Positions 2,679 to 45,701 of a stretch of DNA of 64,000 bases are shown in pieces. A program made the position numbers and the translations under genes. Within the stretch, counting starts at the first letter, position 1. Every line of letters starts with the position of its first letter. Source of the stretch: Candidatus Adlerbacteria bacterium (GTDB lineage: Bacteria > Patescibacteriota > Minisyncoccia > Phycocordibacterales > SBAW01). The stretch covers positions 1,675 through 65,674 of the forward strand of contig CAIJFH010000027.1 in the NCBI GenBank assembly GCA_903819895.1. Reading direction: 5' to 3'. The notes beneath the pieces were generated by a model. That model was not told the origin of the DNA, ran no database searches, and was given only the letters and a program-made list of their open reading frames with translations.

Positions 2679-3860
2679 CTACGGCAAAAACTTTTTAAAC
2701 CAGCGGAAGAAGTTTTTGAGGAGTTCTTTCAACTCGCTTTGGTGTGTCGGCTCGCCCATATCGCCACCTTGGGTGATGCCCCAAATGGTGAGCCCATAGG
2801 CGACTGCCCACGTGCCGTCTTTAAGCTGCACCTTGCTCCCTGCGCCATCCTCAAACGAGGCGAGCCGCGATGGGAGATGCAAAATGGTTTTGGCGAGGTC
2901 GGATGCGGTTTGGATCGCCGAGCCGCCGCCGGTGAGGATGATACCCGCGGGGAGCAGCTCATTTTTGCCGATCTTTTTTAAATGTGCCTCGATGAGTTTA
3001 AACATATCCGACACGCGCTTGGCGATGAGGTCGTCGATTTTCTTTTTGGGGAATGGTGCGCCCAGGACAGCGCCCTGCTTGAGTTGCTCGGCGTCCTCGG
3101 GTGCAATGCGCAAACCAAGTGCCAAGTCATTGGTGATATCGGACGCGCCGACCGGGAACACTTTGATAGAGATGGGTGTGGTGTCCTCAAACACCGCGAT
3201 CGACAATGTTTCGGCGCCGATGTTGGCGAGCACGCAGCCGACGCGTTTTTGCATCTTCGACAGTGTGACAAAGCTCGCGGCGATGGGTGCGGCGACGACG
3301 TCCTCGACCTCAAACCCGGCCTCCTCGACTGCCGAGACCAAATCGTTGACGTGCCGCTCGAGGCAGGTGATAAACAGTGTCTCGACCGCGATGCGCACAC
3401 CTTTCATCCCGATGGGGCTGCCGCCCATGACGCGTTGTCCATCGACCGCGTAGCGCAGAGGGATGGTGTGGATGATTTTTCGATTGAGAATGAGTGCTGG
3501 TGCGAGCGCCTTCTCGCTGGCGGCGATGGCGTGGGGGATGTCACGCTCGGTGATCTCGGCATTGCCTTTCTCGACAATCGACTCGCCGCGGCCAAACGCC
3601 TCGTCGAGCCCGATGCCGCCAAGCCCCAAGTAGACGCGCTTTACTTTGACATGTGCGGCTTTGGACGCTTGTGCCACCGCGGCCGCGACGGAGCGTGACA
3701 CCTCGGGGATCGAGGTGATGTAACCATTTTTAAGCCCGCGCGACTCGGCGTATCCGGTCGCCAAAATACGCGGCAGTTGCCGCGGATCTGCTGCTTGCTC
3801 GGCGATGACCACTTTGACATGGTAGGTGCCGACATCTATGCCAGTGACGATGGTGCTCAT
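2679..3860 (-). CDS. ftsA: Cell division protein FtsA (actin-like ATPase)
   Basis: The N-terminus MSTIVTGIDVGTYHVKVVIAE and the motifs GAETLSIAVFED and ILTGGGSAI are actin/FtsA signatures. The C-terminus has an amphipathic tail (KNFFRWFKKFLP). No ftsZ is adjacent. Confidence 0.9.
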   Translation of the reverse strand: MSTIVTGIDVGTYHVKVVIAEQAADPRQLPRILATGYAESRGLKNGYITSIPEVSRSVAAAVAQASKAAHVKVKRVYLGLGGIGLDEAFGRGESIVEKGNAEITERDIPHAIAASEKALAPALILNRKIIHTIPLRYAVDGQRVMGGSPIGMKGVRIAVETLFITCLERHVNDLVSAVEEAGFEVEDVVAAPIAASFVTLSKMQKRVGCVLANIGAETLSIAVFEDTTPISIKVFPVGASDITNDLALGLRIAPEDAEQLKQGAVLGAPFPKKKIDDLIAKRVSDMFKLIEAHLKKIGKNELLPAGIILTGGGSAIQTASDLAKTILHLPSRLASFEDGAGSKVQLKDGTWAVAYGLTIWGITQGGDMGEPTHQSELKELLKNFFRWFKKFLP

Positions 3861-4252
3861 TACGCGCGGAGCGCGAATTGTTTTAAGATTCGACGCTCTT
3901 CACGTTCCATTGTATCACCATGATCCAATCCTCGTAAGTGCAGTAATCCGTGGATAAATAAATACGCGATGAAGATGCGCGGCGTCATCGAAAATTCTTT
4001 GCACTCGCGTCGTGCAGTCGCCGGGCAGAGCAAGATCTCGCCCGATGTTTCGCTGAGGGGGAAGGAAAGTACGTTGGATGCTTTGTCTTTATGTTTTACT
4101 TCTTGTGTCACACGCGTCGCCTCGGCTGCGGTGAGCAGCGCCAGCGACAGCTCGTACTCCTCGCCGAGCACGGCGTTTTTGAGTGCTAAAAACGGAACTC
4201 GCGGCACGGCGCCGCGGGTCTTGTTGGTGAGAGAAAAATTCTTGGTGCTCAT
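3860..4252 (-). CDS. ybeY: Endoribonuclease YbeY (rRNA maturation factor)
   Basis: HGLLHLRGLDHGDTMEREERRIL matches the HGxLHLxGxDH zinc motif. The start is chosen at ATG 4250-4252 (MSTKNFSL) to avoid overlapping rpsU. The longer ORF extends to 4336. The stop overlaps the ftsA start (ATGA). Confidence 0.8.
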   Translation of the reverse strand: MSTKNFSLTNKTRGAVPRVPFLALKNAVLGEEYELSLALLTAAEATRVTQEVKHKDKASNVLSFPLSETSGEILLCPATARRECKEFSMTPRIFIAYLFIHGLLHLRGLDHGDTMEREERRILKQFALRA

Positions 4253-4268
4253 GTGAGCAAAGAGATGC

Positions 4269-4523
4269 CTAGCGGCGGCGAGGGCCACGGGTGGTGCGCT
4301 CCTCCATTTTGCCGAGTTTGATCTGCTCTTGGACATCCTCGCGGCGCTTGATGACCTTGAGTGTCTGCTTGCGACGGACTTCGCGCGACTTGATGCGCGA
4401 GTAGTAGCGGCGGCTGCGCATACCTTGGATCAACCCCGAGCCCTGGACGCGCTTGCTAAAACGGCGGATCAAATTGACCGCCGACTCGCCCTCGTTTTTC
4501 GATACTTCTGCATTGGTAGCCAT
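4269..4523 (-). CDS. rpsU: 30S ribosomal protein S21
   Basis: The basic small protein ...AVNLIRRFSKRVQGSGLIQGMRSRRYYSRIKSREVRRKQ aligns with the S21 pattern (ALRRFKR..AGVL.E.RRR.FYEKP). The ATG at 4521-4523 (MATNAEV) is preferred over the upstream GTG. Confidence 0.8.
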   Translation of the reverse strand: MATNAEVSKNEGESAVNLIRRFSKRVQGSGLIQGMRSRRYYSRIKSREVRRKQTLKVIKRREDVQEQIKLGKMEERTTRGPRRR

Positions 4524-4590
4524 GTAAAAAGATACTACCACACCGCACTATTGCGTGCAACCAACTACATAGGACGGACCTATGTAGTGG

Positions 4591-5742
4591 TTACCGCAGT
4601 GTCTTAAGGAGGCGGGGGAGGGCGTCGATGCGGAGGGTAGTTTGGGACGAGTTGGTGGTCGAACGCAGGATGATGGTGCCATCGAGCGCCTCGCGCTGGC
4701 CCATGATGAGCAGGTGCGACACACCCATCTGCCGCGCGTTGGCGAGCTGTGGCGCTAAACTTTTTGCATCAAACGACTGCGACATTGGCACCTGCGCTTG
4801 GCGCAGCATGTCGACGACCGCGAGCCCTTGGAGTTTGGCGCGCAGCCCCAATTGGACAAAGTAGACCTTGGGCACCGCTGGTTGGGGCGGGGTGGCATAG
4901 CTCGTGCGGTCGGCACCTTTTTTGCGAAAGAAGATGCTCGCCGACACTGCGGCGGTATCTTTTTTGTTGAGCGTGCGACGCAAGTACTCGTCGTAGCGGC
5001 CGCCAACGCTGCTCATGATGGTGCCGTCCCCTTCGGGCAGGTCGATTGCAAACAGGATGCGCGGCTCGCGCTCGTCACCCACCAGCAAATCATCCAGCTC
5101 GTAGGGGAAGCCGAGTCCTTCGATATGCTCGAGCACCTCGCGAAAGTGCGCGCGGCTTTTCTCGGAGAGAAAGTTCATCGCGCGTGGGCCGCCCTCGAGC
5201 ACCTCGCGGCACACATCGTTGGTGCAGGTGTATGTGGCGCAGGGCGCTTGGCCGATGCGGGCGCGACAGGCGTCGTCGAGCTCGTGCGCATGGCGGCGCA
5301 GGTAGGCGGTCAACTCGCGCTCAAAGCGTGCCTTGGAGTCGCGGTCGCCCAGCGCGTTGATCCGGATGCGCGGCGCTTTGACGCCCCACTCGGTGAGGAT
5401 CGCAAACAATGTTTTGATGATAATCACCTCGCCGATGCTCTCGGGCGAGCCGATTACCTGCAGGCCAAACTCGGCTATCTCGCGTGGCAGGTGGGCAGGT
5501 GGCAGGTGGGTTGGCGATGGTGTCGCATAAAACGCGAGCACCGGCTCGCCTGCGCGTGCTTGCATCAGCGCTGCGCAGGTTTGCGCGGCGGTAGCAAAGG
5601 TGTGCGGCCCGCGCGGGCGCAGTGTTGCAGGGATGCCACGCTCGATCTCTTTAATGGGGCGAAATCCGTAGAACGTCGCCACATCGCCGGCACGTCGAAT
5701 AAAGGTGATGGGTGAACCTTGGGTGATTGGACTCATAGTCAC
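4591..5742 (-). CDS. hisS: Histidyl-tRNA synthetase-like class II aaRS protein (HisRS or HisZ-like paralog) with anticodon-binding domain and possibly degenerate motif 2
   Basis: GGRYDEYL (HisRS motif 3 GGRYD) is present. The central region is collinear with E. coli HisRS (FERELTAYLRRHAHELDDACRARI..., NFLSEKSRAHFREVLEHIEGLGFPYELDDLLVGDEREPRILFAIDL). The C-terminus VYFVQLG...LLIMGQREALDGTIILRS is a class II anticodon-binding fold. The motif-2 arginines are not evident (PSPTHLPPAHLPREIAEFGLQV). Confidence 0.65.
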   Translation of the reverse strand: MTMSPITQGSPITFIRRAGDVATFYGFRPIKEIERGIPATLRPRGPHTFATAAQTCAALMQARAGEPVLAFYATPSPTHLPPAHLPREIAEFGLQVIGSPESIGEVIIIKTLFAILTEWGVKAPRIRINALGDRDSKARFERELTAYLRRHAHELDDACRARIGQAPCATYTCTNDVCREVLEGGPRAMNFLSEKSRAHFREVLEHIEGLGFPYELDDLLVGDEREPRILFAIDLPEGDGTIMSSVGGRYDEYLRRTLNKKDTAAVSASIFFRKKGADRTSYATPPQPAVPKVYFVQLGLRAKLQGLAVVDMLRQAQVPMSQSFDAKSLAPQLANARQMGVSHLLIMGQREALDGTIILRSTTNSSQTTLRIDALPRLLKTLR

Positions 5743-5750
5743 GCTAATGA

Positions 5751-6311
5751 TTATTGCGGCTCGGACGCACTACCAGGGAAGATGCCGATCGATTGTGGGG
5801 GAAGCAGGCGGAGGAAGACGTGTCCGACAATGTCGCCTTGCGGCAAAAATCCCCAAATGCGCGAGTCGGACGACTCGGGTCGGTTGTCGCCCATGACAAA
5901 GTAGTTGCCTGCGGGGACGACGTAGGTTTGGTTGCCGCCGTTGCCGTGGTTGACGACGTACTGTTCGTTAACGGTAACTGTTGATGTGCCGTCTGTGTGC
6001 GTGACGGTCACGCCAGTGTCGGTGATGTGCACGGTCTCGCCAGGGAGCCCAATGATGCGCTTGATAAAAAATTGTGATGGATCTTTGGGGTAGCGAAAGA
6101 CGATGACATCGCCGCGTCTTGGCTGCTCAAAATGGTACGAGAGCTCGTCGACAATGAGGTATTGGTCGTTTTGAAAGGTGGGAACCATCGACTCGCCCGA
6201 GACGATAAACGGTTGCGCAACAAAAAGACGCACCGGAACCACAATCACCAATGCGATGATTGCAAATTTGAGGAGTTCGGTGAAAAAGGTATCACGTTTC
6301 TCCTCTTGCAT
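5751..6311 (-). CDS. lepB: Signal peptidase I
   Basis: A TM anchor is followed by FIVSGESMVPTF (catalytic Ser box), RGDVIVFRYPKD, GLPGE and YFVMGDNRPESSDSR. The start is taken at ATG 6309-6311 (MQEEKRD). The longer ORF extends to 6395. Confidence 0.88.
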   Translation of the reverse strand: MQEEKRDTFFTELLKFAIIALVIVVPVRLFVAQPFIVSGESMVPTFQNDQYLIVDELSYHFEQPRRGDVIVFRYPKDPSQFFIKRIIGLPGETVHITDTGVTVTHTDGTSTVTVNEQYVVNHGNGGNQTYVVPAGNYFVMGDNRPESSDSRIWGFLPQGDIVGHVFLRLLPPQSIGIFPGSASEPQ

Positions 6312-6389
6312 GTGCACATTGTATACTGCTAATACAATCGCGCAAGTCGAGACGCTACACATCGTATAAAAAAGGAGTATGCTGAGTAT

Positions 6390-6983
6390 ATGCAATGGAT
6401 TTTAGTCGGCTTAGGCAACCCAGGGAGCGAGTATGTCGGCACGCGGCACAATGTCGGGCGCGAGATGTTGCAACACATCGTGCACGAGGCGGGCATTGGC
6501 GAGTGGAAGGTGGATAAAAAACTCCATGCGCAAGCGACCAAGGGCGAGATTGATGGCAAAAAAGTGCTCGTCGTGCTGCCCGATACCTACATGAACAGCT
6601 CTGGCGGCTCGCTCAAGACGCTTGTGCTGTCCAAAAAGCAGGCCGAGCAGACGGTCGTCTTGCACGACGACCTCGATATCCCGCTCGGCAAAATCAAACT
6701 CTCGTTTGGTAGTGGTGCCGGCGGGCACAAAGGTGTTGAGTCAATTCACAAAGTGATTAAGACAAAAGATGTGGTGCGCATCCGCATCGGCATATCTCCC
6801 GCAACACCAAAGGGGAAGTTGAAGAAGCCCGACAGCGCGGACATTGTCGACTTTGTGCTCGGGACGTTTAAACCCAGCGAGCGCGCAAAGTTGGAGACCG
6901 CAAAAAAGAATATCCACGACGCAATCACCCTGCTCCTTAGTGAGGGCAGGGCGAAGGCGATGACCGAAATCAATTCGCGATAA
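6390..6983 (+). CDS. pth: Peptidyl-tRNA hydrolase
   Basis: MQWILVGLGNPGSEYVGTRHNVG is a canonical Pth N-terminus. The RBS aaggag lies upstream. Confidence 0.92.
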   Translation: MQWILVGLGNPGSEYVGTRHNVGREMLQHIVHEAGIGEWKVDKKLHAQATKGEIDGKKVLVVLPDTYMNSSGGSLKTLVLSKKQAEQTVVLHDDLDIPLGKIKLSFGSGAGGHKGVESIHKVIKTKDVVRIRIGISPATPKGKLKKPDSADIVDFVLGTFKPSERAKLETAKKNIHDAITLLLSEGRAKAMTEINSR

Positions 6984-10164: not shown

Positions 10165-12753
10165 ATGGCTGATAAAAATACAAAAAAAATTGAAGAATCG
10201 GCGCCAATGCCCGAGCGTGTGAACGTGATAGATCGCAACATTTCAACCGAGATGCGCGAGTCGTACCTCGATTACGCAATGTCGGTGATTACGACACGTG
10301 CGCTCCCCGATGTGCGCGATGGTTTGAAGCCCGTGCACCGCCGCATCCTCTACGCGATGCATCGCATGGGGCTCACCCCGGGCGCACGTTTTCGCAAGTC
10401 GGCGGCAGTGGTTGGTGATGTGCTGGGTAAGTACCATCCGCACGGCGATATTTCTGTATACGATGCAATGGTCAAGATGGCGCAAGAGTTCTCGATGCGC
10501 TACCCATTGGTTATTGGCCAAGGAAACTTCGGCTCAATCGACGGCGACTCGGCAGCAGCGATGCGCTACACCGAGGCAAAGATGTCGTCGATGGCGTCGC
10601 TCTTGTTGAACGATCTCGAGAAGGAGACCGTCGACTGGCGCCCCAACTACGACGGCACACTCAAAGAGCCCGAGGTGCTGCCCGCTGCGGTGCCAAATAT
10701 TTTGCTCAACGGTACACTCGGCATCGCCGTTGGTATGGCGACCTCTATCCCGCCACACAACCTCACCGAACTCACCAACGCGCTCACGCATTTGATAGAA
10801 AACCCCGATGCGACGGTCGAGGATTTGATGGAGCATGTCTCGGGCCCCGACTTCCCCACAGGCGCGGTCGCGTTTAATAAAAAGGATTTGCTGCACGCCT
10901 ACACCACCGGCAAGGGCGGCGTCGTGGTGCGCGGCCAGGCCGAAATTGTCGAGGATAAAAAAGGCAACTTCCAAATTATCATCACCTCCATCCCATACCG
11001 CGTCAACAAGTCCGACCTCATTGTCCGCATCGCCGATTTGGTGCGCGATAAAAAAATCGATGGCATCAGAGGGCTCCGCGATGAATCAACCCGCGACATC
11101 CGCGTCGTGGTCGACCTCAAGGTTGGTGCGCATCCACAAAAGGTGCTCAACTTTCTCTACAAGCACACGGCGCTCGAGGACACGTTCCACTTCAACATGG
11201 TCGTCTTGGTCGACGGCGTGCCGCAAACGCTGTCACTCAAAGGGATCCTCCAAGAGTTTATCAAGCACCGCAAGGTGATCGTGAAGCGTCGCACTGAGTA
11301 CGATTTGCGCAAAGCGCAAGAGCGCGAGCACATTTTGCTTGGCCTCACCAAAGCCCTCGATCATATCGACGAGGTGATCAAGACGATTCGCGCGTCCAAG
11401 GATGTGCCGGACGCAGCAGCCAACCTCATCAAAAAGTTTAAATTTTCCGACCTGCAAGCGGCAGCGATTTTGGAGATGCGCTTGTCGCGTCTTGCAAACC
11501 TCGAGCGCAAGAAGGTCGAAGACGAGTTAGCAGAAGTACAGGCGATGATCGCTGAGTGGACCGCGCTCTTGGGGAGTGAAAAGAAGATGCTCAGTGTCGT
11601 CAAAACAGAAATTGTCGCTGCGGGCGAGAAGTTTGGCGATGATCGCAACACCAAAGTCATTAAGGGTGCCGCAGGTATCATCAACGTCGAGGACTTGGTG
11701 CCCGAGGAGGAGCAGGTGCTCGTCCTCACCTCCGGCGGCTACGTCAAACGCACCAACCCCGAGGAGTACAAACGCCAAAAGCGCGGCGGCGTTGGTGTGA
11801 TTGACCTTGATACAAAGGAGGAGGATTTTGTCACCACGGTCCTCACCACCTCGAGCCACAGCGACCTGCTCTTTTTTACCGACCTTGGCAAAGCGTATCA
11901 AATCAAGATGTACGAGCTCCCCGAAGGGAAGCGTTCGACCAAAGGCAAGGCGATCGTCAACTTTTTGTCGATTGGTGACAACGAAAAGGTCACGAGTGTC
12001 TTGCCGATGCGCCTCTCTGCACACTCGACCAAGGGTAAAAAATCTGCCAAGGCGGATGGTGCGTCTGGCAAGGATGATGCTGCCGAGGGATCGCAGTCGC
12101 TGTACATGATCACCAAGTTGGGTGTCGCCAAGAAAGTTGATGCGACCGCGTTCCACGATGTGCGAAGATCGGGGCTCATCGCGATGCGGCTCGACGCAGG
12201 CGACCAGCTCATCGCAGCGCTGTTGGTGGGTAAGGGGGATGAAATTGTCCTCACCTCGCAGCGTGGGCAAGCGATCCGCTTTAAAGAAAGTGACATCCGC
12301 TCGATGGGTCGGACAGCCGGCGGCGTGCGCGGTATGAAGCTCGACAAAGACGATGTTATTGTCGGCGCCGATGTGGTGCGCCACGGCGACAAGGGGGCAG
12401 AGATCCTCGTCGTGACAAAGAATGGCTACGGCAAGACGACGCCTGCGAAAGAATATAAAACGCAGAATCGCGGCGGCTCGGGAATCAAGACGGTCAAAGT
12501 AACGCCAAAGACGGGGCAGCTGATCGCCGCGCGCGTGGTCTCAAAAGTTGGCGGCAATGCAAAGTCGTCTGGCAACGGCGACACGTCCGCCGACAACATC
12601 AACGACATGAGCGAGCTCGTCGTCGTCTCGCAAAAAGGCCAAGTGATCCGCACCGAGCTCTCCGAGATCCCATCCCTCTCGCGCGACACCCAAGGCGTCC
12701 GTATCATGAAACTCCGCGACGGCGACGCCATTGCGAGCTTTGTTTGTTTGTAA
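10165..12753 (+). CDS. gyrA: DNA gyrase subunit A
   Basis: [26 protein letters not shown], the catalytic Tyr region [11 protein letters not shown], GyrA-box and C-terminal beta-pinwheel repeats are present. The product is 862 aa. Confidence 0.95.
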
Positions 12754-12760
12754 AATCTTT

Positions 12761-13012
12761 ATGCTTGATAGAGAAAGTGACAATAAAATTATTGGTACAT
12801 TAGGTGCAACCAATACGAATCTCTTTCAAATACAGGGTACTCTTTCTAGTTTAGCGAGACAGTTTTCAGACTTAAACAAAAATCTGAGGGATTCGGCTGA
12901 ATCGTCCACAAAACTTACGAAAGCAATTAAAAACGTAACATTGTTTGGTGTCGGTGTCGCCGTTCTTTCTTTATGTTGGGATATTTACAAGACACTGTTT
13001 CTTCATGCCTAA
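12761..13012 (+). CDS. Hypothetical small protein with C-terminal TM helix, in AT-rich islet
   Basis: The ORF is AT-rich (about 38% GC against a host of about 58%). The product is MLDRESDNKIIGTLGATNTNLFQIQ...VTLFGVGVAVLSLCWDIY. Confidence 0.4.
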   Translation: MLDRESDNKIIGTLGATNTNLFQIQGTLSSLARQFSDLNKNLRDSAESSTKLTKAIKNVTLFGVGVAVLSLCWDIYKTLFLHA

Positions 13013-13020
13013 ATAGTCAT

Positions 13021-13302
13021 ATGAGGCAAGGACCAAAAAATATTTGTTCTCCACTGGAGCGTAAAACCCCCACACAATATTCAGGGCTGCAGCCAGATAG
13101 TGTAGATTTTCAGGAGTATTTTGATGCCTGGAGTTTGGAGGAACAGATAATGTGTGTGCGTTATGTAGAAAGAGATGCTTTTCGCTACGCATTTAAATTT
13201 GCGTTAGTTGTGGGCTTGATAATTGGTTTTTGCTTTGGCTTTCTTCTCGCTCAGAATCATTATTCTCGTGTGTTGATTGAGAAAGTCTTTGCTGGTCAGT
13301 AG
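13021..13302 (+). CDS. Hypothetical small membrane protein, AT-rich islet
   Basis: The product is MRQGPKNICSPLERK...FKFALVVGLIIGFCFGFLLAQNHY (C-terminal TM). It sits immediately upstream of the Fic/DOC gene. Confidence 0.35.
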   Translation: MRQGPKNICSPLERKTPTQYSGLQPDSVDFQEYFDAWSLEEQIMCVRYVERDAFRYAFKFALVVGLIIGFCFGFLLAQNHYSRVLIEKVFAGQ

Positions 13303-13408
13303 AAAATAGGTGCCAAGTATTTCTTCTGGCGCGTGTAGTAAGCAAGGCGTCGCCTTGCTAAAAAGCAAAAAAGCAAACCGTTGTCGAATTTTTTGCTATA
13401 CTTACGGT

Positions 13409-14392
13409 ATGGTACAGGCGAAGAAGAAAACAGGCGGGGTGGTGCTGTATCAGGCAAAGAACGGAGCGATTGAGCTGCGGGGTGATGCGTCACGCGAGAC
13501 GATTTGGGCGAACCGTATGCAGATGGCAGAAATCTTCGGCGTTAATCCACAGGCGATAACCAAGCATATCCAGCATATCTATGAGGAAAAAGAGTTGGAT
13601 CGAAAGGCAACTAGTTCCAAATTGGAACTAGTTCAAAACGAGTCTGGCAGAACAGTAAAACGACAGGTTGATATCTACAACTTGGACGTTATTATTGCTG
13701 TCGGCTATCGAATCAACTCGGTGATGGGGACAAACTTTCGCATCTGGGCGACCAAGACGCTGCGGGAGCATATTACAAAGGGGTACACCATCAACCGCAA
13801 GCAGATTGCCAAGAACTACGACGCGTTTATGAAAGTGGTTGGCGATGTGCAGGCGCTCTTGCCCGAGCATGTCGCACTCGACCCCAAAGGCGTGCTCGAA
13901 CTTATCAAAGAGTTTGCGGGCACGTGGGTGTCGCTCGACGCATACGACAAAGAGACACTCTCGACCAAAGGTGTCACCAAGAAGAGTGTGCGGCTTACTG
14001 GCGAGGAGTTGCGCACAGCGATTAGTGATCTCAAAAAAGAGTTGCTGCGCAAAGGCGAGGCAACAGAGCTCTGTGCTGCCGAGCGCGCGGCGGGGAGTGT
14101 CGAGGGAATTGTCGGCAACGTGATGCAATCCTTCGGCGGCAAGCCGGTTTACGCGACCGTCGAGGAGAAGGCAGCGCACCTCTTGTACTTTATGGTCAAA
14201 AATCATCCCTTTACCGACGGCAACAAGCGGTCGGGCGCTTTCGCGTTCGTGTGGTTCTTGCGAAAGACAGGCAGCCGTGGGAGCCGCAACATCAACCCAG
14301 CAGCGCTCACGGCACTGACATTACTTATTGCCGAAAGTAACCCGCACAAAAAAGATCAGATGGTCGCTCTGGTGACGCAGATGCTCAAATAG
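13409..14392 (+). CDS. Fic/DOC family protein with RhuM-like N-terminal domain
   Basis: The Fic motif HPFTDGNKRSGAFAFVWFL (HPFx[DE]GNxR) is present. The N-terminus (LYQAKNGAIELRGDASRETIWANRMQMAEIFGVNPQAITKHIQHIY) resembles virulence protein RhuM. The start is ATG 13409 (ORF from 13310). Confidence 0.75.
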   Translation: MVQAKKKTGGVVLYQAKNGAIELRGDASRETIWANRMQMAEIFGVNPQAITKHIQHIYEEKELDRKATSSKLELVQNESGRTVKRQVDIYNLDVIIAVGYRINSVMGTNFRIWATKTLREHITKGYTINRKQIAKNYDAFMKVVGDVQALLPEHVALDPKGVLELIKEFAGTWVSLDAYDKETLSTKGVTKKSVRLTGEELRTAISDLKKELLRKGEATELCAAERAAGSVEGIVGNVMQSFGGKPVYATVEEKAAHLLYFMVKNHPFTDGNKRSGAFAFVWFLRKTGSRGSRNINPAALTALTLLIAESNPHKKDQMVALVTQMLK

Positions 14393-15690: not shown

Positions 15691-15768
15691 CGCACCCTTA
15701 GCTCAGTTGGTAGAGCACACCCTTCACACGGGTGGGGTCGCAGGTTCGAGTCCTGCAGGGTGCACCAC
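15691..15768 (+). tRNA. tRNA-Val (anticodon CAC), CCA encoded
   Basis: The acceptor GCACCCT/AGGGTGC, D-arm GCTCAGTTGGTAGAGC, anticodon stem-loop CACCC-TTCACAC-GGGTG, T-arm GCAGGTTCGAGTCCTGC and a 3' ACCA are present. By my reading there are 2 extra nt between the D-stem and anticodon stem, possibly a transcription artefact of mine. Confidence 0.8.
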
Positions 15769-15914
15769 CCTGAGCAAGCAACCTGCGTTGCTTGCGTCAG
15801 GACGAGAAAGGCGGAGCATGTCGAGCCCAGCAGGGCGAGGCAGCGAGCCGGGGTCGCGGTCGAGGATGCGCGACGGCGCAGACGAGAACCGTGACCGAGT
15901 CGTTAGCAATAGTG

Positions 15915-15985
15915 CGGGCTGTAGTATACCGGTAGTACGCGCGCTTCGGGTGCGTGAAGACCGGGTTCGATTCCCGGCAGCCCGA
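15915..15985 (+). tRNA. tRNA-Pro (anticodon CGG), CCA not encoded
   Basis: The acceptor CGGGCTG/CAGCCCG, anticodon stem-loop CGCGC-TTCGGGT-GCGTG (G37) and T-arm CCGGGTTCGATTCCCGG are present. Confidence 0.75.
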
Positions 15986-16013
15986 CAAGTAGTGTAGAGT
16001 AAGTGAGACCGAG

Positions 16014-16055
16014 TTCGACCCGCCTGCCGGCGGGCAGGTTCCCGGCAGCCCGACA
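16014..16055 (+). terminator. Hairpin plus T-run after tRNA-Pro; contains second copy of tRNA-Pro 3' end (TTCCCGGCAGCCCGACA)
   Basis: The hairpin CTGCCGG-cgggcaggttc-CCGGCAG is followed by CCCGACAGAG and then TTTTTTT (16049-16055). Confidence 0.4.
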
Positions 16056-16102
16056 GAGTTTTTTTGTGTTACATTAATACGCGTGCCACATCGGCACGTT
16101 AG

Positions 16103-16173
16103 GGCCCATAGTTAAGTGGTAAAACGCTGCATTCGCATTGCAGAGGCGCGAGTCCGATTCTCGCTGGGTCCAC
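16103..16173 (+). tRNA. tRNA-Ala (anticodon CGC), G3:U70 present, CCA not encoded
   Basis: The acceptor GGGCCCA/TGGGTCC has a G3-U70 wobble. The anticodon stem-loop is CTGCA-TTCGCAT-TGCAG and the T-arm is GCGAGTCCGATTCTCGC. Confidence 0.8.
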
Positions 16174-16257
16174 AAATCATTGACAGATAAGAACATTCTG
16201 TTCTACATTGTTTGTAGACGATCTCCGACACAACCTCGCAAGAAAGGATTCTGCGTT

Positions 16258-17553
16258 ATGTACAGAGAGTTAAAGTCTCCTGTTGCGGTCCAACTGGAAC
16301 TAACGACAGGATGCAATGAAAGGTGCGTCCATTGCTACAACCACTGGAGAAGATCCTCCGAAGAAGACAGGACTTTGACCGAGGATGACGTCCGGCGAAT
16401 CATCGAGAACCTCAAGGATAGCGAAGTTCCAAACCTGCTCATCACAGGCGGAGAACCGATGCTCTACCCCGACCTATTGATCCGCACACTTGAACTTGGG
16501 AGGGAAGCTGGCCTCAAGTGCTCGCTGAACTCCAATTTGACGCTCGTGACGCCAGAGCTTGCTCGAGAGCTGAAAAGGCTCAAGGTCGGCATACTGACAT
16601 CGATCCTATCTTTTGACGAGAGACTGCACGATAAGCTCACAACCGTGCCTGGTTCCTTCGACATGCTCGTCAAGGGAATCAGGTTGGTCAGGGAATACGA
16701 AATCCCCGTTGGCGCGAACATGGTCGTGATGCAAATGAATGTGGACCAAATCTACGAGACGGGTAGGTTTATTCATAGCATGGGCGTGACTGCGTTTCGG
16801 GCAACGAAAGTACATCCCGCCCAAGGATCCCCATGCTTCGAGAGGATCAAGCTCCCTTCGGAACGCATTGTCGACATTTTCGACACCTTGATTAGGTTGC
16901 GGGATGAGCTCGGACTCGACGTCGATTCTCTGACTACCTACCCCACCTGCCTCCTCAAGGATATGAGCCGCTACGGCCAATTCGTCTCGAGAAGGAGCTG
17001 TAGCGCTGGAAAGACTGGCTGCACAATCGGCGCGGACGGACAAGTTCGCCCGTGCGGTCATTCCGACAACACCTACGGCAACTCTATTGTCGAGCCGCTT
17101 CTCGAAATCTGGCCTAGATTGCGGGAGTGGCGAGACGGCTCGCTGTTACCAACGGAATGCAAAGAATGCAAGCATGTTATTCAATGCAGCGGCGGCTGTC
17201 GTATGGATTGCAAGCACTACGGCAACATCAGTGGGATGGATCCATACGCCCCGGGCAAAGACTTCGCGTACACACCCCAACAACGAGAGGAGGTCACGCC
17301 TCTTGATCCTGAATCGGAGCTGGTCGTTAACTCGACCCTTCGCCTGAGAATCGAGACATTCGGCACAGCACTGATTGTCGATGGGAACTTCAAATCTATC
17401 GTCACCTCTGACACGGCCGAATTGTTGGAGCAGCTACGGAATGCAACTTTCACGCTCGGCTCAATCTCTGAGGAGTATGGTCTTGAGGTGGACATGCTGT
17501 GCAAGTTCTTTGCCAGCTTGCACGCCTTGAGAGTCGTCTACTTTGCCAGCTAG
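16258..17553 (+). CDS. Radical SAM enzyme with C-terminal SPASM domain (peptide-modifying or AnSME-like maturase)
   Basis: The ORF has a GGAG-type RBS (gaaagga). LELTTGCNERCVHCYN carries the CX3CX2C motif and LLITGGEPML the GGEP SAM-binding motif. A C-terminal Cys cluster (CSAGKTGCTIGADGQVRPCGH...CKECKHVIQCSGGCRMDC) matches SPASM. The start is ATG 16258 (ORF from 16138 overlaps tRNA-Ala). GC is lower than the flanking DNA. Confidence 0.85.
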   Translation: MYRELKSPVAVQLELTTGCNERCVHCYNHWRRSSEEDRTLTEDDVRRIIENLKDSEVPNLLITGGEPMLYPDLLIRTLELGREAGLKCSLNSNLTLVTPELARELKRLKVGILTSILSFDERLHDKLTTVPGSFDMLVKGIRLVREYEIPVGANMVVMQMNVDQIYETGRFIHSMGVTAFRATKVHPAQGSPCFERIKLPSERIVDIFDTLIRLRDELGLDVDSLTTYPTCLLKDMSRYGQFVSRRSCSAGKTGCTIGADGQVRPCGHSDNTYGNSIVEPLLEIWPRLREWRDGSLLPTECKECKHVIQCSGGCRMDCKHYGNISGMDPYAPGKDFAYTPQQREEVTPLDPESELVVNSTLRLRIETFGTALIVDGNFKSIVTSDTAELLEQLRNATFTLGSISEEYGLEVDMLCKFFASLHALRVVYFAS

Positions 17554-28400: not shown

Positions 28401-31391
28401 ATGGAACAGAAACGCAAAAAGATTGTCGCTCTCATCCCTTGCTATAACGAAGAGCGCGGTGTGGCCGCCGTGTTGCAGCGATTCCCGCACGACAAAATTG
28501 CTGCGCAGGGTTTTGATCTAGAAAGTATTGTTATCGACAACAACTCGACCGACAACACCGCCGCGGTTGCGCGCTCGCTTGGTGCGACAGTAATCCACGA
28601 GCCAAAAAAAGGGAAGGGCAATGCGATGCGGCGTGGATTTTATGCGATACCCGATGACGCCGACTACATTGTGATGCTCGATGGCGACGACACCTACCGC
28701 CCCGAAGAGATGTTGCGCCTGGTTGAGCTGCTCGACTCGGGGTTCTGCAGCGTAGCGATTGGCTCGCGGCTGGGTGGCCGCGTAGTCGAGGGCTCGATGC
28801 CGTTTGTAAATCGTGTAGGCAATTGGATTTTTTCGCACCTGGTGCGTTTTTTCTATCGCGCCAATGTTACCGATGTGCTCACAGGTTACTTTGCCTGGGA
28901 TCGTCGCGCACTCGAGCGGCTGCGGCCACACTTGGTGTCCGAAGGGTTTGCGATAGAGATGGAGATGGTGACCAAGCTGGCGCGGCTCGGCGAGGATATC
29001 TACTGCGTCCCCATCACCTACGTCTCCCGCGAGGGCAAGAGCAATTTGCGACCGTTCTACGATGGGCTGCGCATCTTGTGGATGGGTACCAAAAACTTTT
29101 TTTGGCGACCACCGGTTGAACAATTGGTGCCGCCTAGGTTGACACGCAAGCGTCTCGTTGTTGTTGCGCCTTATTTTTATCCAAAGATCGGCGGGCTCGA
29201 GAAGTATGCGCACACCGTTGCTACGGGTATGGCCGCAAGTGGCGAGTGGGAGGTGAGCATCGTCACCAGCAATCACGAAGGACGCGCGTACAAGAAAGAA
29301 GTTGTTGACGGCATGACTGTGCACCGACTGCCAGCGTGGTGGATACTTTCAAACACACCCATCAACCCGCTGTGGTTTTTTTGGCTGCGCCGATTCTATC
29401 GCCAAGAGCGTCCCGACCTAATTCATGTGCATTCGCCCGTGCCGTTTATTGCGGACATGGCGACCTTTGCTGCGGGCAGTATACCTGTGGTGATGACATA
29501 CCATGCCGGCAGCATGGCAAAAGGTCGTACGAGTATTGATCTGCTCATCCGTTTGTATGAAAAGACAGTGTTGCGCGCGGTATTTCGTCGTGTCGACGCG
29601 ATTGTTGCTGTGTCTGCGGCCGCAGCGCCGCAGGAGTTGGCATCGGTACAACACAAGGTGCACTACATATCCCCCAGCGTCGCCATCGAGTCGTTTACTC
29701 CCACACCGCTGCCGACACGGCGCGAGAAAGTAGTGCTGTTTGTGGGGCGGATCGAGCAGAGTTCTGCCTGGAAAGGGATTGATCCGCTATTGCAATCGAT
29801 TGCACTGCTGCGCCAACAGATGCCACAGGTGCGGCTGCATTTGGTGGGGAGCGGGGACGCAGTCGAGCAGTATCGTGCGCGAGCAACTGCGCTTGGTATT
29901 GGCGATTATGTTTCGTTTGCGGGCACCCAACGAGGCGCTGATTTGGCACAGCAGTATGCAAACGCCGATGTTGTCGTCTTGCCCTCAACTTCGGCGTCCG
30001 AGTCGTTTGGCACGGTACTCATCGAGGCAATGGCCTCGGGGCGGCCGGTGGTGGGCTCGCGTGTGGGCGGCATCCCGCAAGTGATCGACCACGAAGAGAC
30101 CGGGTTGCTGGTGCCACCCAACGACCCGCGTGCGCTGGCAGATGCGCTCGCGCGTATCTTGTCTGACACTTCGCTCGCGACACGTCTTGCCACGGCAGGG
30201 CTCCACAAAGCGCAAACAACCTACACCACACAGATACAACATGCACGTTACCGTTCGCTCTATGCGAATATGCTGCAACAAACACAGAGCGTGCCGGTGG
30301 TGCACCTTTCGGCATATTACCCACCACACACGGGTGGGCTCGAGCGGGTCGCACAAATGTGCGTTGAGGGGCTCGCGGCGCGCGGATACCCAACACGCAT
30401 CATCACCACGACGCAAAGCGGATTAGCACCTGGCACCACCACGACTGGCAATATCACCACCACCGTGCTGCGCAGTGTCGAAGTCGCGCATACGCCCGTG
30501 GCACCGGGGTTGGTGTGGGAGTTGTGCATGCTTCCGCGCGGCTCCGTCTTGCATATCCACCTGGCGCAAGCATTTTTCCCCGAGGTGCTGCTGATGGTGG
30601 CGTGGCTGCGCGGGATGCGGTACGTCGTGCACTTTCATCTGGACGTAGCGCCGTCGGGCACCTTTGGTCGTGTGTTTGTGCTCTACAAACGCATCGTGTG
30701 GCACGCGCTGTTGCAGCATGCTGCGCATGTTATTTCCTGCGCACAGGATCAGGTTACTATTCTCGAACAAAAATTTGGCGTACCGCCCGAGCGCGTCACC
30801 GTTATCCCAAACGCCGTTGGCACCGACTTTTTTAGCAATCGCGTGTATCAACCGTCGGATGATACCCTGCGCATCTTGTCTATTGGGCGACTCTCGGCAC
30901 AAAAGCGCATCGACCGATTACTCGAGGCATGTGCATTGCTCACCATCCCGTACACACTTACTATCACAGGTGATGGCGAAGAGCGTGCAGCACTCGAGGA
31001 GTTGGCCACGCGGCGCGGTCTCACCAACGTGGTGTTTGTGGGGAAGAAAACTGACAGGGAGATGCAAGCATTGCATCGCACACACGACCTGTTTGTCGTG
31101 CCGTCCGACAAAGAGGGGATGCCGCTTGCAGTGCTTGAGGCGATGGCAGCGGGACTGCCTATCCTAGCAACACGAGTCGAGGGTTTGGCCGAGCTGCTCG
31201 ACGGCGTTGGCGTGCTGGTTGATGCGCCCTACGAGCAAGCGCTCGCGCGTGCGATAGAACAGCTGTGGCACGACAAGACACAACTGGTCGCTCTGTCCCG
31301 CAAAAGTATTGCCAAAGCAGCTACCTATCGCTGGGAGCGTTTTATCGATTCGCTCTTGTCTGTTTATACTACCTACGTATGCGCACATTAA
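28401..31391 (+). CDS. Tri-domain glycosyltransferase fusion: N-terminal GT2 followed by two GT4 (GT-B) modules, 996 aa
   Basis: The GT2 module has IALIPCYNEERGV, DNNSTDNT and the DxD-like MLDGDD. The first GT4 module has ESFGTVLIEAMASGRPVVGSRVGGIPQVI...GLLVPPND. The second has EGMPLAVLEAMAAGLPILATRVEGLAELL. Confidence 0.85.
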   Translation: MEQKRKKIVALIPCYNEERGVAAVLQRFPHDKIAAQGFDLESIVIDNNSTDNTAAVARSLGATVIHEPKKGKGNAMRRGFYAIPDDADYIVMLDGDDTYRPEEMLRLVELLDSGFCSVAIGSRLGGRVVEGSMPFVNRVGNWIFSHLVRFFYRANVTDVLTGYFAWDRRALERLRPHLVSEGFAIEMEMVTKLARLGEDIYCVPITYVSREGKSNLRPFYDGLRILWMGTKNFFWRPPVEQLVPPRLTRKRLVVVAPYFYPKIGGLEKYAHTVATGMAASGEWEVSIVTSNHEGRAYKKEVVDGMTVHRLPAWWILSNTPINPLWFFWLRRFYRQERPDLIHVHSPVPFIADMATFAAGSIPVVMTYHAGSMAKGRTSIDLLIRLYEKTVLRAVFRRVDAIVAVSAAAAPQELASVQHKVHYISPSVAIESFTPTPLPTRREKVVLFVGRIEQSSAWKGIDPLLQSIALLRQQMPQVRLHLVGSGDAVEQYRARATALGIGDYVSFAGTQRGADLAQQYANADVVVLPSTSASESFGTVLIEAMASGRPVVGSRVGGIPQVIDHEETGLLVPPNDPRALADALARILSDTSLATRLATAGLHKAQTTYTTQIQHARYRSLYANMLQQTQSVPVVHLSAYYPPHTGGLERVAQMCVEGLAARGYPTRIITTTQSGLAPGTTTTGNITTTVLRSVEVAHTPVAPGLVWELCMLPRGSVLHIHLAQAFFPEVLLMVAWLRGMRYVVHFHLDVAPSGTFGRVFVLYKRIVWHALLQHAAHVISCAQDQVTILEQKFGVPPERVTVIPNAVGTDFFSNRVYQPSDDTLRILSIGRLSAQKRIDRLLEACALLTIPYTLTITGDGEERAALEELATRRGLTNVVFVGKKTDREMQALHRTHDLFVVPSDKEGMPLAVLEAMAAGLPILATRVEGLAELLDGVGVLVDAPYEQALARAIEQLWHDKTQLVALSRKSIAKAATYRWERFIDSLLSVYTTYVCAH

Positions 31392-36128: not shown

Positions 36129-36197
36129 ACTTCTATAGTGCGCATACTGGCATGCTTGGCACTATTTGTCGACTCGTGCATCTGCTATAGTGTACAT

Positions 36198-37370: not shown

Positions 37371-37379
37371 TGCTAGTGT

Positions 37380-39437: not shown

Positions 39438-39461
39438 TACTAGTGGTGCTATCATATACGT

Positions 39462-40406: not shown

Positions 40407-40424
40407 GTAGGGTATACTGGGGAG

Positions 40425-44358: not shown

Positions 44359-44381
44359 GAAAATGAGCTCCCAATACTTTT

Positions 44382-45143: not shown

Positions 45144-45150
45144 AATGACA

Positions 45151-45171
45151 ATCCAAGGGTAACCCTTGGAT
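45151..45171. repeat. Palindromic intergenic element ATCCAAGGGTAACCCTTGGAT (copy 1 of 4; others at 45653-45673, 46538-46556, 62933-62952)
   Basis: The same 19-21 nt perfect palindrome (stem TCCAAGGG, loop TAA) recurs immediately 3' of stop codons. Confidence 0.7.
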
Positions 45172-45221
45172 TGTAGCGACCATGGATGTCCGTCCTCTGT
45201 AGAGTTTGCTATACTGCTGTT

Positions 45222-45650: not shown

Positions 45651-45701
45651 TCATCCAAGGGTAACCCTTGGATTGTGATAAAATACGCCCAGTTGTAGTA
45701 T

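What the first reader, a model, noticed from the sequence alone, without database searches (positions are those of the whole stretch)
4591..5742. HisRS-like protein with anticodon-binding domain but apparently degenerate catalytic motif 2
Motif 3 (GGRYDEYL) and the C-terminal anticodon-binding domain are clear, and the middle region aligns with E. coli HisRS. Where HisRS has FRHERPQKGRYRQFHQ, this protein has ...PSPTHLPPAHLPREIAEFGLQV, without the catalytic arginines by my reading. It is also short (383 aa). It is either a very divergent functional HisRS or a pseudo-synthetase/HisZ-like regulator that retained the anticodon-binding domain.
Basis: partly seen in the sequence, partly recalled or inferred. 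Interest (0 to 1): 0.5.

Follow-up and report, generated by a model that had tools for sequence, protein, structure and literature searches.

The report
Catalytically dead HisRS at hisS locus
In this candidate-phyla-radiation bacterium, the gene at the usual histidyl-tRNA synthetase position encodes a strongly conserved copy that has lost its catalytic motifs but keeps the residues that read the tRNA-His anticodon, so it probably binds tRNA-His without charging it, and how these bacteria charge tRNA-His is unresolved.

Summary
The ORF (4591-5742, minus strand, 383 aa) is real and HisRS-like. Motif 2 is degenerate. The TXE loop is deleted, the HisA arginine and tyrosines are replaced, and the true motif 3 arginine is lost.

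This is not a pseudogene. It belongs to a large Patescibacteria (Paceibacteria) family with conserved length, dN/dS of 0.05-0.08, and a confident HisRS fold.

The gene sits in the same lepB-hisS-rpsU-ybeY-ftsA slot that holds canonical hisS in other CPR bacteria, so it is the positional ortholog of hisS. The three side chains that read the GUG anticodon are 98-100% conserved across every degenerate subgroup. The catalytic motifs are present in 0 of 369 members.

In a sample of 120 metagenome loci, all 107 with slot genes carried CPR-type canonical hisS inside that slot, and only one short, ambiguous locus might lie outside it. These lineages therefore appear to lack their own type of active HisRS.

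Best reading: a non-catalytic pseudo-synthetase that binds tRNA-His. It is not HisZ. Whether a foreign HisRS exists elsewhere in these genomes could not be tested.

The parts
4591..5742 (-). hisS-derived pseudo-synthetase gene ('hisX'). 383 aa from GTG 5742; public calls start at ATG 5736 (381 aa); stop codon at 4591-4593.
5656..5712 (-). Residues 11-29: retained class II motif 1 (long helix plus strand, ...DVATFYGFRP...), which forms the dimer interface in HisRS.
   Evidence: AF2 helix 11-24. Alignment to canonical 'EVAVYYGFKP'. G26 and F27 are invariant. The conserved strand proline of canonical enzymes is lost in this subgroup.
5452..5541 (-). Residues 68-97: remnant of motif 2 (strand-loop-strand). 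R113, E115 and Q127 equivalents are lost; Q127 becomes E91 (invariant) and E131 becomes Q95. The loop is variable with indels across the family.
5107..5352 (-). Residues ~131-212: HisRS insertion domain, strongly conserved (NALGDRDSK.RFERE...GPRAMNFLSEKSR.HF.EVLE).
5059..5094 (-). Residues 217-228: remnant of the HisA/histidine-1 motif (DDLLVGDEREPR). The catalytic R259 and Y263/Y264 equivalents are lost. R225 is invariant in this subgroup.
4990..5004 (-). Residues 247-251: GGRYD, the retained HisB/histidine-2 motif.
4915..4950 (-). Residues 265-276: remnant of the true class II motif 3 (AVSASIFFRKKG). The conserved glycines and R311 are lost.
4594..4875 (-). Residues 290-383: HGTP-type anticodon-binding domain.
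   Evidence: Pfam PF03129; AF2
4642..4701 (-). Residues 348-367 (GQREALDGTIILRSTTNSSQ). E351, R360 and Q367 match T. thermophilus E388, K397 and Q404, which read G34, G36 and U35 of tRNA-His.
   Evidence: PMC4357726; spacing check against E. coli. Conserved 98-100% in all groups. Invariant.
5751..6395 (-). lepB (signal peptidase I), immediately upstream; part of the conserved slot.
4269..4523 (-). rpsU (S21, 84 aa), immediately downstream; part of the slot.
3860..4336 (-). ybeY; part of the slot.
2679..3860 (-). ftsA; part of the slot.
6390..6983 (+). pth (peptidyl-tRNA hydrolase), divergent from lepB; a conserved neighbour of the slot.
4564..4588 (-). Perfect 10-bp inverted repeat with a 5-nt loop, 3 nt after the hisX stop codon and before rpsU.
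   Evidence: Read directly from the sequence. Not scored as a terminator. Function not tested.

Best explanation
The gene is the in-place descendant (positional ortholog) of the CPR histidyl-tRNA synthetase gene. It has become a catalytically dead pseudo-synthetase.

It has lost the elements that activate histidine and transfer it to tRNA: the TXE/ordering loop, the motif 2 and motif 3 arginines, the HisA R-G-L-D-Y-Y motif, and the N-terminal strand and motif 2 loop that hold G-1 and the acceptor end.

It keeps the class II fold, the motif 1 dimer interface, the insertion domain, and a complete ABD with the three side chains that read G34, U35 and G36.

It most likely acts as a dimeric, non-catalytic protein that binds tRNA-His through the GUG anticodon. 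The role could be tRNA-His handling, sequestering or sensing, or it could be the tRNA-holding partner of another enzyme. It does not aminoacylate.

Shown: loss of motifs, retention of the anticodon readers, fold, orthologous locus, purifying selection, family breadth.

Inferred: tRNA-His binding, dimerisation, lack of activity, and that histidylation is supplied by something else in the cell.
For: (1) Catalytic motifs. TXE, motif 2 and HisA occur in 0% of 369 family members (three subgroups), against 99%, 97% and 98% of 120 canonical Paceibacteria HisRS. Per-site comparison: E83, R121, R123, Q127, E131, R259, Y263, Y264, G304, G308 and R311 are 100% conserved in canonical enzymes and replaced or deleted here. 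A 55-sequence alignment of the whole family has only 13 invariant columns; apart from the glycine and arginine of the retained HisB motif, none falls at a catalytic-site position.

(2) Anticodon readers. E351, R360 and Q367 match Tth E388, K397 and Q404 (PMC4357726). They are 98-100% conserved in every group and account for 3 of those 13 invariant columns.

(3) Fold. AF2 pLDDT 88.4 and pTM 0.88, with all three HisRS domains. The Foldseek top 50 are all HisRS. The family profile hits only HisRS in PDB.

(4) Selection. dN/dS is 0.052 and 0.077 in two independent pairs at ~89% identity, matching neighbouring lepB, pth, S1 and ybeY. Every domain is <=0.12. More than 446 clusters have the same ~380-aa length, and 507 representatives at 50% identity score E<1e-30.

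(5) Orthologous locus. The arrangement S1 | pth | lepB-X-rpsU-ybeY-ftsA-ftsZ holds the dead gene in the window, L003/L004, L005, L257, L259 and L260, and in part in L258. The same slot holds canonical hisS in L006, L007, L130, L134, L135 and in Saccharibacteria L129 and L132.

(6) No spare copy of the lineage's own enzyme. Of 120 metagenome loci carrying the canonical CPR motif 2, 107 are in the slot. Of the other 13, eight look non-CPR, four are too short to judge, and one (L242) is ambiguous. No flank carries a second HisRS-like gene.

(7) The window's proteins use histidine normally (2.5%).
Against: No biochemical data exist; inactivity and tRNA binding are inferred from sequence.

I could not read any whole genome of these lineages. 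The existence of another HisRS, for example a horizontally acquired non-CPR type, is assumed rather than shown. No active CPR-type copy was found, so the dead gene may be the only HisRS homolog, which would favour some residual or unconventional activity.

The window's subgroup keeps HisB (GGRYD) and basic residues (R-K-K) at the motif 3 position, and subgroup-invariant residues line the former pocket (E91, R225). Ligand binding in the pocket cannot be excluded for this subgroup.

dS is ~1, close to saturation, so dN/dS values are approximate.
Confidence: 0.62

Rival explanations
1. It is still the cell's working HisRS, with a radically remodelled active site that uses residues other than the canonical ones.
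For: It sits in the hisS slot and is the only HisRS homolog seen in the 64-kb window and in all related loci. No CPR-type canonical hisS was found outside the slot. The cell needs His-tRNA, since histidine makes up 2.5% of residues. The whole former catalytic core is under strong purifying selection. HisB GGRYD and an R/K-K pair at the motif 3 position are kept in this subgroup.
Against: No active class II synthetase is known without the motif 2 and motif 3 arginines (established knowledge). TXE, motif 2 and HisA are all missing. The replacement residues differ between subgroups; E91 and R225 are invariant only in the window's subgroup. In the AT-rich subgroup the second HisB glycine is Val/Ile/Leu, and the milder G286A change in T. 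thermophilus HisRS already costs more than 30-fold activity (PMC4357726). The motif 2 loop varies in length. It scores 103.7 bits against the 286.75-bit cutoff of TIGR00442.
Confidence: 0.12
2. It is the non-catalytic subunit of a two-component HisRS. It would heterodimerise through motif 1 with a separately encoded, catalytically active HisRS-like protein and contribute the ABD, as SLIMP does with SerRS2.
For: Motif 1 (dimer interface) and the ABD are the best-kept parts. In HisRS the tRNA contacts both subunits of the dimer (PMC4357726). Dead paralogs that pair with active synthetases are known (SLIMP; review PMC9437257, and own knowledge).
Against: No partner gene was found. There is no second HisRS-like ORF in the window, in about 130 flanks, or in the Pfam lists around eight family loci. 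CPR-type canonical hisS never appeared outside the slot. No contig carries both types in the lists.
Confidence: 0.15
3. It is a HisZ-like regulatory subunit of ATP phosphoribosyltransferase (HisG) in histidine biosynthesis.
For: It is a HisRS homolog without catalytic motifs, as HisZ is. There is a weak hit to a HisZ model (E=0.15).
Against: HisZ lacks the ABD, which this protein keeps. The HisZ model scores 10.7 bits against a 643-bit cutoff. The family profile hits no HisZ structure in PDB. The histidine-contacting residues (TXE, E131, Y263/Y264) are lost. No hisG or other his gene lies in the window or in any neighbourhood list. The locus is the hisS slot among translation and division genes.
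Confidence: 0.02
4. It is a decaying pseudogene or an assembly or annotation artefact.
For: Catalytic motifs are lost and the protein is truncated relative to HisRS.
Against: The reading frame is intact and the length constant (~376-393 aa) in more than 100 listed homologs from independent assemblies. dN/dS is 0.05-0.08. The AF2 model is confident. The identical protein occurs on six independent contigs.
Confidence: 0.01

Closest known systems
Canonical bacterial histidyl-tRNA synthetase (HisRS, TIGR00442), specifically the Patescibacteria/Paceibacteria type (e.g. P0193; Yonathbacteria, Azambacteria)
   Same: Same three-domain fold: class II core with motif 1, insertion domain and HGTP ABD. 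Same genomic slot, lepB-hisS-rpsU-ybeY-ftsA. Same anticodon-reading E/R/Q triad and HisB arginine. The ABD and insertion domain are so similar that canonical P0193 scores 251 bits against the family profile.
   Different: The TXE loop is deleted, motif 2 is replaced by a variable loop, the HisA R-GLDYY motif and the motif 3 arginine are lost, and the N-terminal 'RGM.D' strand is missing. It falls below the TIGR00442 cutoff. It evolves much faster than canonical HisRS: long branches, and only 32-34% identity between family subgroups.
HisZ (HisRS paralog; regulatory subunit of ATP phosphoribosyltransferase HisG)
   Same: A bacterial HisRS homolog without aminoacylation activity. It is the only HisRS-like protein listed in the 2022 review of aaRS paralogs (PMC9437257).
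   Different: HisZ has no ABD, keeps histidine binding and works with HisG. This protein keeps the ABD, has lost the histidine-binding residues, has no his-operon context, and is an ortholog in the hisS locus rather than a paralog.
HisRS-like domain of the eukaryotic kinase Gcn2
   Same: It keeps the HisRS catalytic-domain and ABD folds, lacks the elements for histidyl-adenylate formation and aminoacylation, and is repurposed to bind (deacylated) tRNA (PMC11363354).
   Different: The Gcn2 domain is part of a multidomain eukaryotic kinase, and its ABD 'lacks anticodon-decoding side chains' (section heading), so it binds many tRNAs. Here the protein stands alone, is bacterial, and keeps the tRNA-His-specific anticodon readers. 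The family profile finds no Gcn2 chain in PDB.
[quoted passage not shown]
   Same: A catalytically inactive class II synthetase homolog kept under selection for a non-catalytic role (PMC9437257). SLIMP pairs with the active SerRS2 (own knowledge).
   Different: SLIMP is a paralog that coexists with the active enzyme. Here no coexisting active copy of the same lineage was found, and the dead gene occupies the ancestral locus.

Membership tests
HisRS (histidine--tRNA ligase, class IIa; NCBIfam TIGR00442) | Class II motif 2 with the invariant arginine and the fRxE/…GR.R..Q..E strand-loop-strand | tested here: not met
   R113, E115 and Q127 equivalents are replaced. The motif occurs in 0/369 family members against 97% of 120 canonical sequences.
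HisRS (histidine--tRNA ligase, class IIa; NCBIfam TIGR00442) | Class II motif 3 (G.G.G.(D/E)R) with the invariant arginine | tested here: not met
   GFAMGLER aligns to SASIFFRK. The R311 position is K (89%), N or R in the window's subgroup and unconserved elsewhere.
HisRS (histidine--tRNA ligase, class IIa; NCBIfam TIGR00442) | HisRS-specific TXE/ordering loop (RPEGT) and HisA motif (R259-G-L-D-Y-Y) | tested here: not met
   The TXE hairpin is deleted. HisA becomes G-D-E-R-E-P. Both occur in 0/369 members.
HisRS (histidine--tRNA ligase, class IIa; NCBIfam TIGR00442) | HisB/histidine-2 motif (GGRYD) | tested here: met
   G247, G248, R249 and D251 are invariant in the subgroup. In other subgroups the motif is relaxed to G.RY(D/N).
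HisRS (histidine--tRNA ligase, class IIa; NCBIfam TIGR00442) | C-terminal HGTP ABD with residues reading GUG | tested here: met
   PF03129. E351, R360 and Q367 match Tth E388, K397 and Q404 and are 98-100% conserved.
HisRS (histidine--tRNA ligase, class IIa; NCBIfam TIGR00442) | Score at or above the curated equivalog cutoff | tested here: not met
   103.7 bits against a cutoff of 286.75; only residues 87-370 align.
HisRS (histidine--tRNA ligase, class IIa; NCBIfam TIGR00442) | Overall three-domain HisRS fold and orthologous genomic position | tested here: met
   AF2 pLDDT 88.4. Foldseek top hits are all HisRS. The slot is shared with canonical hisS.
HisRS (histidine--tRNA ligase, class IIa; NCBIfam TIGR00442) | Histidine activation and tRNA-His aminoacylation activity | not testable with these tools
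   Requires ATP-PPi exchange and aminoacylation assays.
HisZ (ATP phosphoribosyltransferase regulatory subunit) | HisRS catalytic-domain homolog that lacks the ABD | tested here: not met
   The ABD is present and highly conserved.
HisZ (ATP phosphoribosyltransferase regulatory subunit) | Matches HisZ profiles or structures | tested here: not met
   NF008942 scores 10.7 bits against a 643-bit cutoff. There is no HisZ chain among the PDB profile hits.
HisZ (ATP phosphoribosyltransferase regulatory subunit) | Co-occurs with short-form hisG / histidine biosynthesis genes | tested here: inconclusive
   None occurs in the 64-kb window or in the neighbourhoods of the related loci listed. Whole genomes could not be read.
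Dead aaRS homolog that binds tRNA (Gcn2 HisRS-like domain type) | HisRS core and ABD folds kept, adenylate-forming elements lost | tested here: met
   definition from PMC11363354.
Dead aaRS homolog that binds tRNA (Gcn2 HisRS-like domain type) | Embedded in a kinase; ABD without anticodon-decoding side chains | tested here: not met
   The protein is a stand-alone 383-aa chain and the anticodon-reading triad is retained. This is an analogy of mechanism, not membership.
Dead subunit paired with an active paralog (SLIMP type) | An active synthetase of the same family is encoded in the same genome | tested here: inconclusive
   No CPR-type canonical hisS was seen outside the slot (107 of 120 sampled loci in slot, 1 ambiguous), and no contig is shared between the two types. 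A foreign-type HisRS elsewhere in the genome could not be excluded.

The most novel reading that the evidence does not exclude
A large, ancient group of Paceibacteria (including Adlerbacteria- and Taylorbacteria-labelled MAGs) may encode no active HisRS of any conventional kind. Their hisS would have been converted in place into a tRNA-His-binding pseudo-enzyme. tRNA-His would then be charged by something unrecognised: a non-homologous or highly atypical enzyme, a partner that uses this protein as its tRNA-binding subunit, or a host-derived activity in these episymbionts. The evidence does not exclude this. The dead gene is the only HisRS homolog seen, it holds the ancestral locus, and the lineage's own type of active hisS was not seen elsewhere in the sample.
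Probability: 0.15. Interest if true: 0.92.

Novelty: new variant of a known kind. Interest (0 to 1): 0.72.

Why it matters
Aminoacyl-tRNA synthetases are treated as universal, single-copy markers. hisS (TIGR00442) is, from my own knowledge, used for genome completeness estimates and phylogenomics.

A whole radiation of CPR bacteria carries, at the hisS locus, a protein that automated pipelines and submitters often call 'histidyl-tRNA synthetase' (JGI and some NCBI names). It lacks the residues needed for catalysis, and it is selected as strongly as its essential neighbours.

This matters for three reasons:
- It adds a bacterial, stand-alone example to the short list of dead synthetases that keep tRNA recognition. 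Until now HisZ was the only bacterial HisRS-like protein in reviews.
- It is unusual in being an ortholog converted in place rather than a spare paralog.
- It makes a concrete question testable: how is tRNA-His charged in these reduced episymbionts, and what is a tRNA-His-specific non-enzyme for?

It also warns that counts of 'complete aaRS sets' in CPR genomes may be overstated.

Tried and rejected
- **Second hisS in the window.** tblastn with E. coli HisRS found only this gene. Pfam scans of 30 further ORFs found LeuRS but no class II HisRS-like protein.
- **Extending beyond the window.** The window lies at one end of its 170-kb contig. Pfam lists about 10 kb around hisX (reaching ~5 kb past the window's left edge) and to the contig end on the right show no HisRS. 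One look-up failed on start-codon choice.
- **Same-contig co-occurrence by contig length.** I compared contig lengths between canonical HisRS and degenerate proteins. There were no coincidences. Each list shows only 120 rows, so this test is weak.
- **GC-biased motif 2 hunt in 185,579 species genomes.** This aimed to find a canonical copy in GC-rich relatives. It gave 9 hits. All 5 CPR hits were canonical hisS in the slot and the rest were non-CPR.
- **Unbiased motif 2 scan of metagenome contigs**. The loci without slot genes were inspected and judged non-CPR, for example L156 with a hisS-aspS operon. L242 remained ambiguous.
- **HisZ and Gcn2 membership.** Rejected.
- **Pseudogene.** Rejected.
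- **Rfam.** No T-box or other leader in the window.
- **Promoter/terminator scan around the gene.** Nothing convincing.
- **tRNA-His gene.** None in the window or in 10 related loci, so its identity elements could not be examined.
- **Literature.** Searches for HisRS with CPR, Patescibacteria or Parcubacteria found no description of this family.
Full report
**What is there**

The window carries an uninterrupted ORF at 4591-5742 on the minus strand. It is 383 aa from GTG; public gene calls use the ATG two codons later. It cannot be longer, because the lepB stop codon lies 8 nt upstream.

The protein is clearly HisRS-like. phmmer gives S. aureus HisRS E=3.7e-25 and E. coli HisRS E=4e-19. Pfam recognises only the C-terminal HGTP anticodon-binding domain, ABD (PF03129). 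The NCBIfam hisS equivalog model scores 103.7 bits against a cutoff of 286.75 and aligns only residues 87-370.

The surrounding genes and all named homologs place the window in a Patescibacteria/CPR genome of about 55% GC. These genes include ftsA, ybeY, rpsU, lepB, pth, S1, gyrA, an F-type ATPase, glycosyltransferases, LeuRS and MnmA.

**Checking the observation**

I aligned E. coli HisRS (positions verified), a canonical CPR HisRS (P0193) and the family.

- The beta-hairpin and TXE loop (KEMY...LRPEGT) are deleted.
- The N-terminal 'RGM.D' strand is absent.
- HisA (R259-GLDYY) has become G-DEREP.
- The true motif 3 (GFAMGLER311) has become SASIFFRK.

The motif 1 helix and strand are also retained, although the strand proline conserved in canonical enzymes is lost in this subgroup. 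The two deletions account for the short length.

**It is a family, not an accident**

A search of 5.8 billion proteins returned more than 446 relatives. The 120 listed are 54-100% identical and nearly all 376-393 aa. They come from many independent assemblies labelled Adlerbacteria, Paceibacterota or Patescibacteria.

A profile search of 1.84 billion representatives found 507 clusters (50% identity level) at E<1e-30. A profile of the AT-rich members found about 2,100 more proteins, many labelled Taylorbacteria or 'Pacebacteria'.

| Feature | 369 family members | 120 canonical Paceibacteria HisRS |
|---|---|---|
| TXE | 0% | 99% |
| Motif 2 | 0% | 97% |
| HisA | 0% | 98% |

Source; per-site table.

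A few partly degenerate forms exist (P0249, P0211).

In two independent pairs at ~89% identity, dN/dS is 0.052 and 0.077, the same as for lepB, pth, S1 and ybeY next door. Every domain, including the dead core, is <=0.12. dS is ~1, so these values are approximate. An AF2 model built from the family alignment is confident (pLDDT 88.4), and its 50 best PDB matches are all HisRS.

**What is kept**

The T. thermophilus HisRS-tRNA-His structure shows G34 read by E386-E388, G36 by K397 and U35 by Q404 (PMC4357726). By spacing and alignment these match E351, R360 and Q367 of the window protein.

These three residues are 98-100% conserved in canonical CPR HisRS and in every degenerate subgroup. They make up 3 of only 13 invariant columns in a 55-sequence alignment of the whole family. 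The other invariant columns lie in motif 1 (YGF), the core strand NS.GD, the insertion domain, the strand that follows HisA, HisB (G.R) and two further ABD positions.

By contrast, the residues that hold G-1, C74 and A76 and the acceptor backbone are gone. In Tth numbering these are R7, E64, E114, R115, Q117, K118, R120 and R122, and they lie in the deleted or replaced segments.

The protein therefore looks built to recognise the tRNA-His anticodon, and probably to dimerise. It does not look built to dock the acceptor end productively or to make histidyl-adenylate.

**Where it sits**

| Gene state in the slot | Loci |
|---|---|
| Dead gene | window, L003/L004 (518-kb contig), L005 (GCA_964841545.1), L259, L260, AT-rich L257 (GCA_040387635.1, 566 kb); L258 in part |
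| Canonical hisS | L006, L007 (Yonathbacteria), L130, L134, L135, Saccharibacteria L129 and L132 |

In all of these the order is S1 | pth | lepB-X-rpsU-ybeY-ftsA-ftsZ. The slot is therefore ancestral for CPR, and the dead gene is the positional ortholog of hisS.

An NJ tree puts all degenerate sequences in one long-branched clade, sister to the canonical Paceibacteria enzymes. Long-branch attraction is a caveat. Flanking proteins are slightly more similar among degenerate-bearing loci than to canonical-bearing loci. Both results fit one old inactivation event followed by diversification.

**Is there another HisRS?**

I could not read whole genomes, so I used indirect tests.
- There is none in the window or in the Pfam lists around it.
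- There are no contig-length coincidences between canonical and degenerate lists. This test is weak.
- A GC-biased motif 2 hunt across 185,579 species genomes found 5 CPR hits, all in the slot.
Of these, 107 contain slot genes. Of the other 13, eight look non-CPR (for example L156, a hisS-aspS operon), four are too short to judge, and one (L242) is ambiguous. No flank holds a second HisRS-like gene.

In degenerate-bearing genomes the slot is occupied by the dead gene. An additional CPR-type active copy would therefore have to lie outside the slot. None was seen among 107, although such organisms occur in the same samples: L258 and several canonical loci come from Ga0209541.

If even 5% of sampled genomes carried such a copy, seeing none would have probability of about 0.004. 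The true proportion is unknown.

So these lineages appear to lack their own type of active HisRS. A foreign-type HisRS remains possible and untested. Histidine makes up 2.5% of the window's proteins, so His-tRNA is needed.

**Interpretation**

The best-supported reading is a catalytically dead HisRS ortholog, retained as a tRNA-His (GUG anticodon)-binding and probably dimeric protein.

Its cellular role is inferred only. It may sequester, sense or chaperone tRNA-His, or serve as the tRNA-holding partner of another enzyme.

The main rival is a remodelled but active HisRS. It gains weight from the failure to find another copy. It conflicts with the loss of all the residues that class II enzymes use for catalysis, and with the lack of any conserved replacement across the family.

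HisZ is excluded for four reasons: the ABD is present, the profile scores are far below threshold, the histidine-binding residues are lost, and there is no his-gene context. A pseudogene is excluded.

**Comparison with what is known**

- **Canonical CPR HisRS.** This is its parent.
- **HisZ.** This is the only bacterial HisRS-like protein listed in a 2022 review (PMC9437257).
- **Gcn2 HisRS-like domain.** It also lacks adenylate-forming elements and binds tRNA, but it has lost the anticodon-decoding side chains and is part of a kinase (PMC11363354).
- **SLIMP-type dead subunits.** These coexist with an active paralog.

This protein resembles the Gcn2 domain in mechanism. It differs in three ways: it is a stand-alone bacterial protein, it is specific for the tRNA-His anticodon, and it is an ortholog converted in place.

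Seven literature searches found no description of this family.

**Verdict**

The open and testable question is who charges tRNA-His in these bacteria.

Noticed in passing
window 4564-4588 (minus strand): A perfect 10-bp inverted repeat with a 5-nt loop (ACTACATAGG-TCCGT-CCTATGTAGT) lies 3 nt after the hisX stop codon, before rpsU. It has no T-run and the terminator scan did not flag it. It could be an RNA processing or attenuation site between lepB-hisX and rpsU-ybeY-ftsA.
   Followed up: partly
proteins P0249 (440 aa) and P0211 (434 aa): These HisRS are partly degenerate. P0249 keeps the N-terminal GMTD, part of motif 2 and HisB, but has HPDGR for RPEGT and GVDT for the motif 3 GVDR. P0211 keeps the motif 3 'ER' but has lost motif 2 and HisA. 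Both branch with the canonical enzymes in the NJ tree, which suggests that catalytic decay of hisS has started more than once in CPR.
   Followed up: partly
database names: JGI names many of these dead proteins 'histidyl-tRNA synthetase', and some GenBank submitters use 'Histidine-tRNA ligase' (e.g. Parcubacteria GW2011_GWA2_47_16). NCBI PGAP calls them 'His/Gly/Thr/Pro-type tRNA ligase C-terminal domain-containing protein' or hypothetical. Counts of aaRS complements and marker-based completeness for these CPR lineages may therefore be misleading.
   Followed up: no
L004 9157-10546 (relative of the window organism): A reverse transcriptase (RVT_1, 344 aa) lies next to a bAvd accessory protein (117 aa). 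This is the signature pair of a diversity-generating retroelement. It sits a few kb downstream of the ftsZ-trxB end of the slot.
   Followed up: no
window 12731-14392: A RhuM plus Fic/DOC domain protein (13310-14392) is preceded by two small ORFs with very low GC3 (0.31-0.35, against ~0.69 for the genome), directly after gyrA. This may be a foreign insert. The same RhuM/Fic gene appears in the 170-kb contig listing.
   Followed up: no
window 15692-17553: A tRNA cluster Val(CAC)-Pro(CGG)-Ala(CGC) lies at 15692-16173. The mechanical TTG start (16138) of the following radical SAM/SPASM ORF overlaps tRNA-Ala, so the real start must be further downstream.
   Followed up: no
window 57750-58577: This 275-aa protein combines an N-terminal ATP-cone with an Mrr-type restriction endonuclease catalytic domain, which is an unusual fusion.
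   Followed up: no
window 28401-41735: A large cell-envelope and glycan block. It contains a 996-aa triple glycosyltransferase fusion (GT2 plus two GT4 units), DUF2206, a further GT4, a flippase-like protein, two GH5 'cellulase'-like proteins, a PIG-L deacetylase with a peptidoglycan-binding domain, and a CAP-domain protein.
   Followed up: no
window ~44000-46000: GC content dips locally to 0.465, and one ORF (44382-45143) has GC3 of 0.36. This may be horizontally acquired DNA.
   Followed up: no
L006 1845-6158 (canonical-hisS genome, 583-kb contig): Five tandem ORFs of ~279-281 aa have no Pfam hit. This is a local paralog array of unknown function upstream of the slot.
   Followed up: no
L129, L132 (Saccharibacteria) versus Paceibacteria loci: The lepB-hisS-rpsU-ybeY-ftsA order is shared between Saccharibacteria and Paceibacteria. 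It was present in 107 of 120 sampled CPR-type hisS loci, which is unusually stable synteny across CPR classes.
   Followed up: partly
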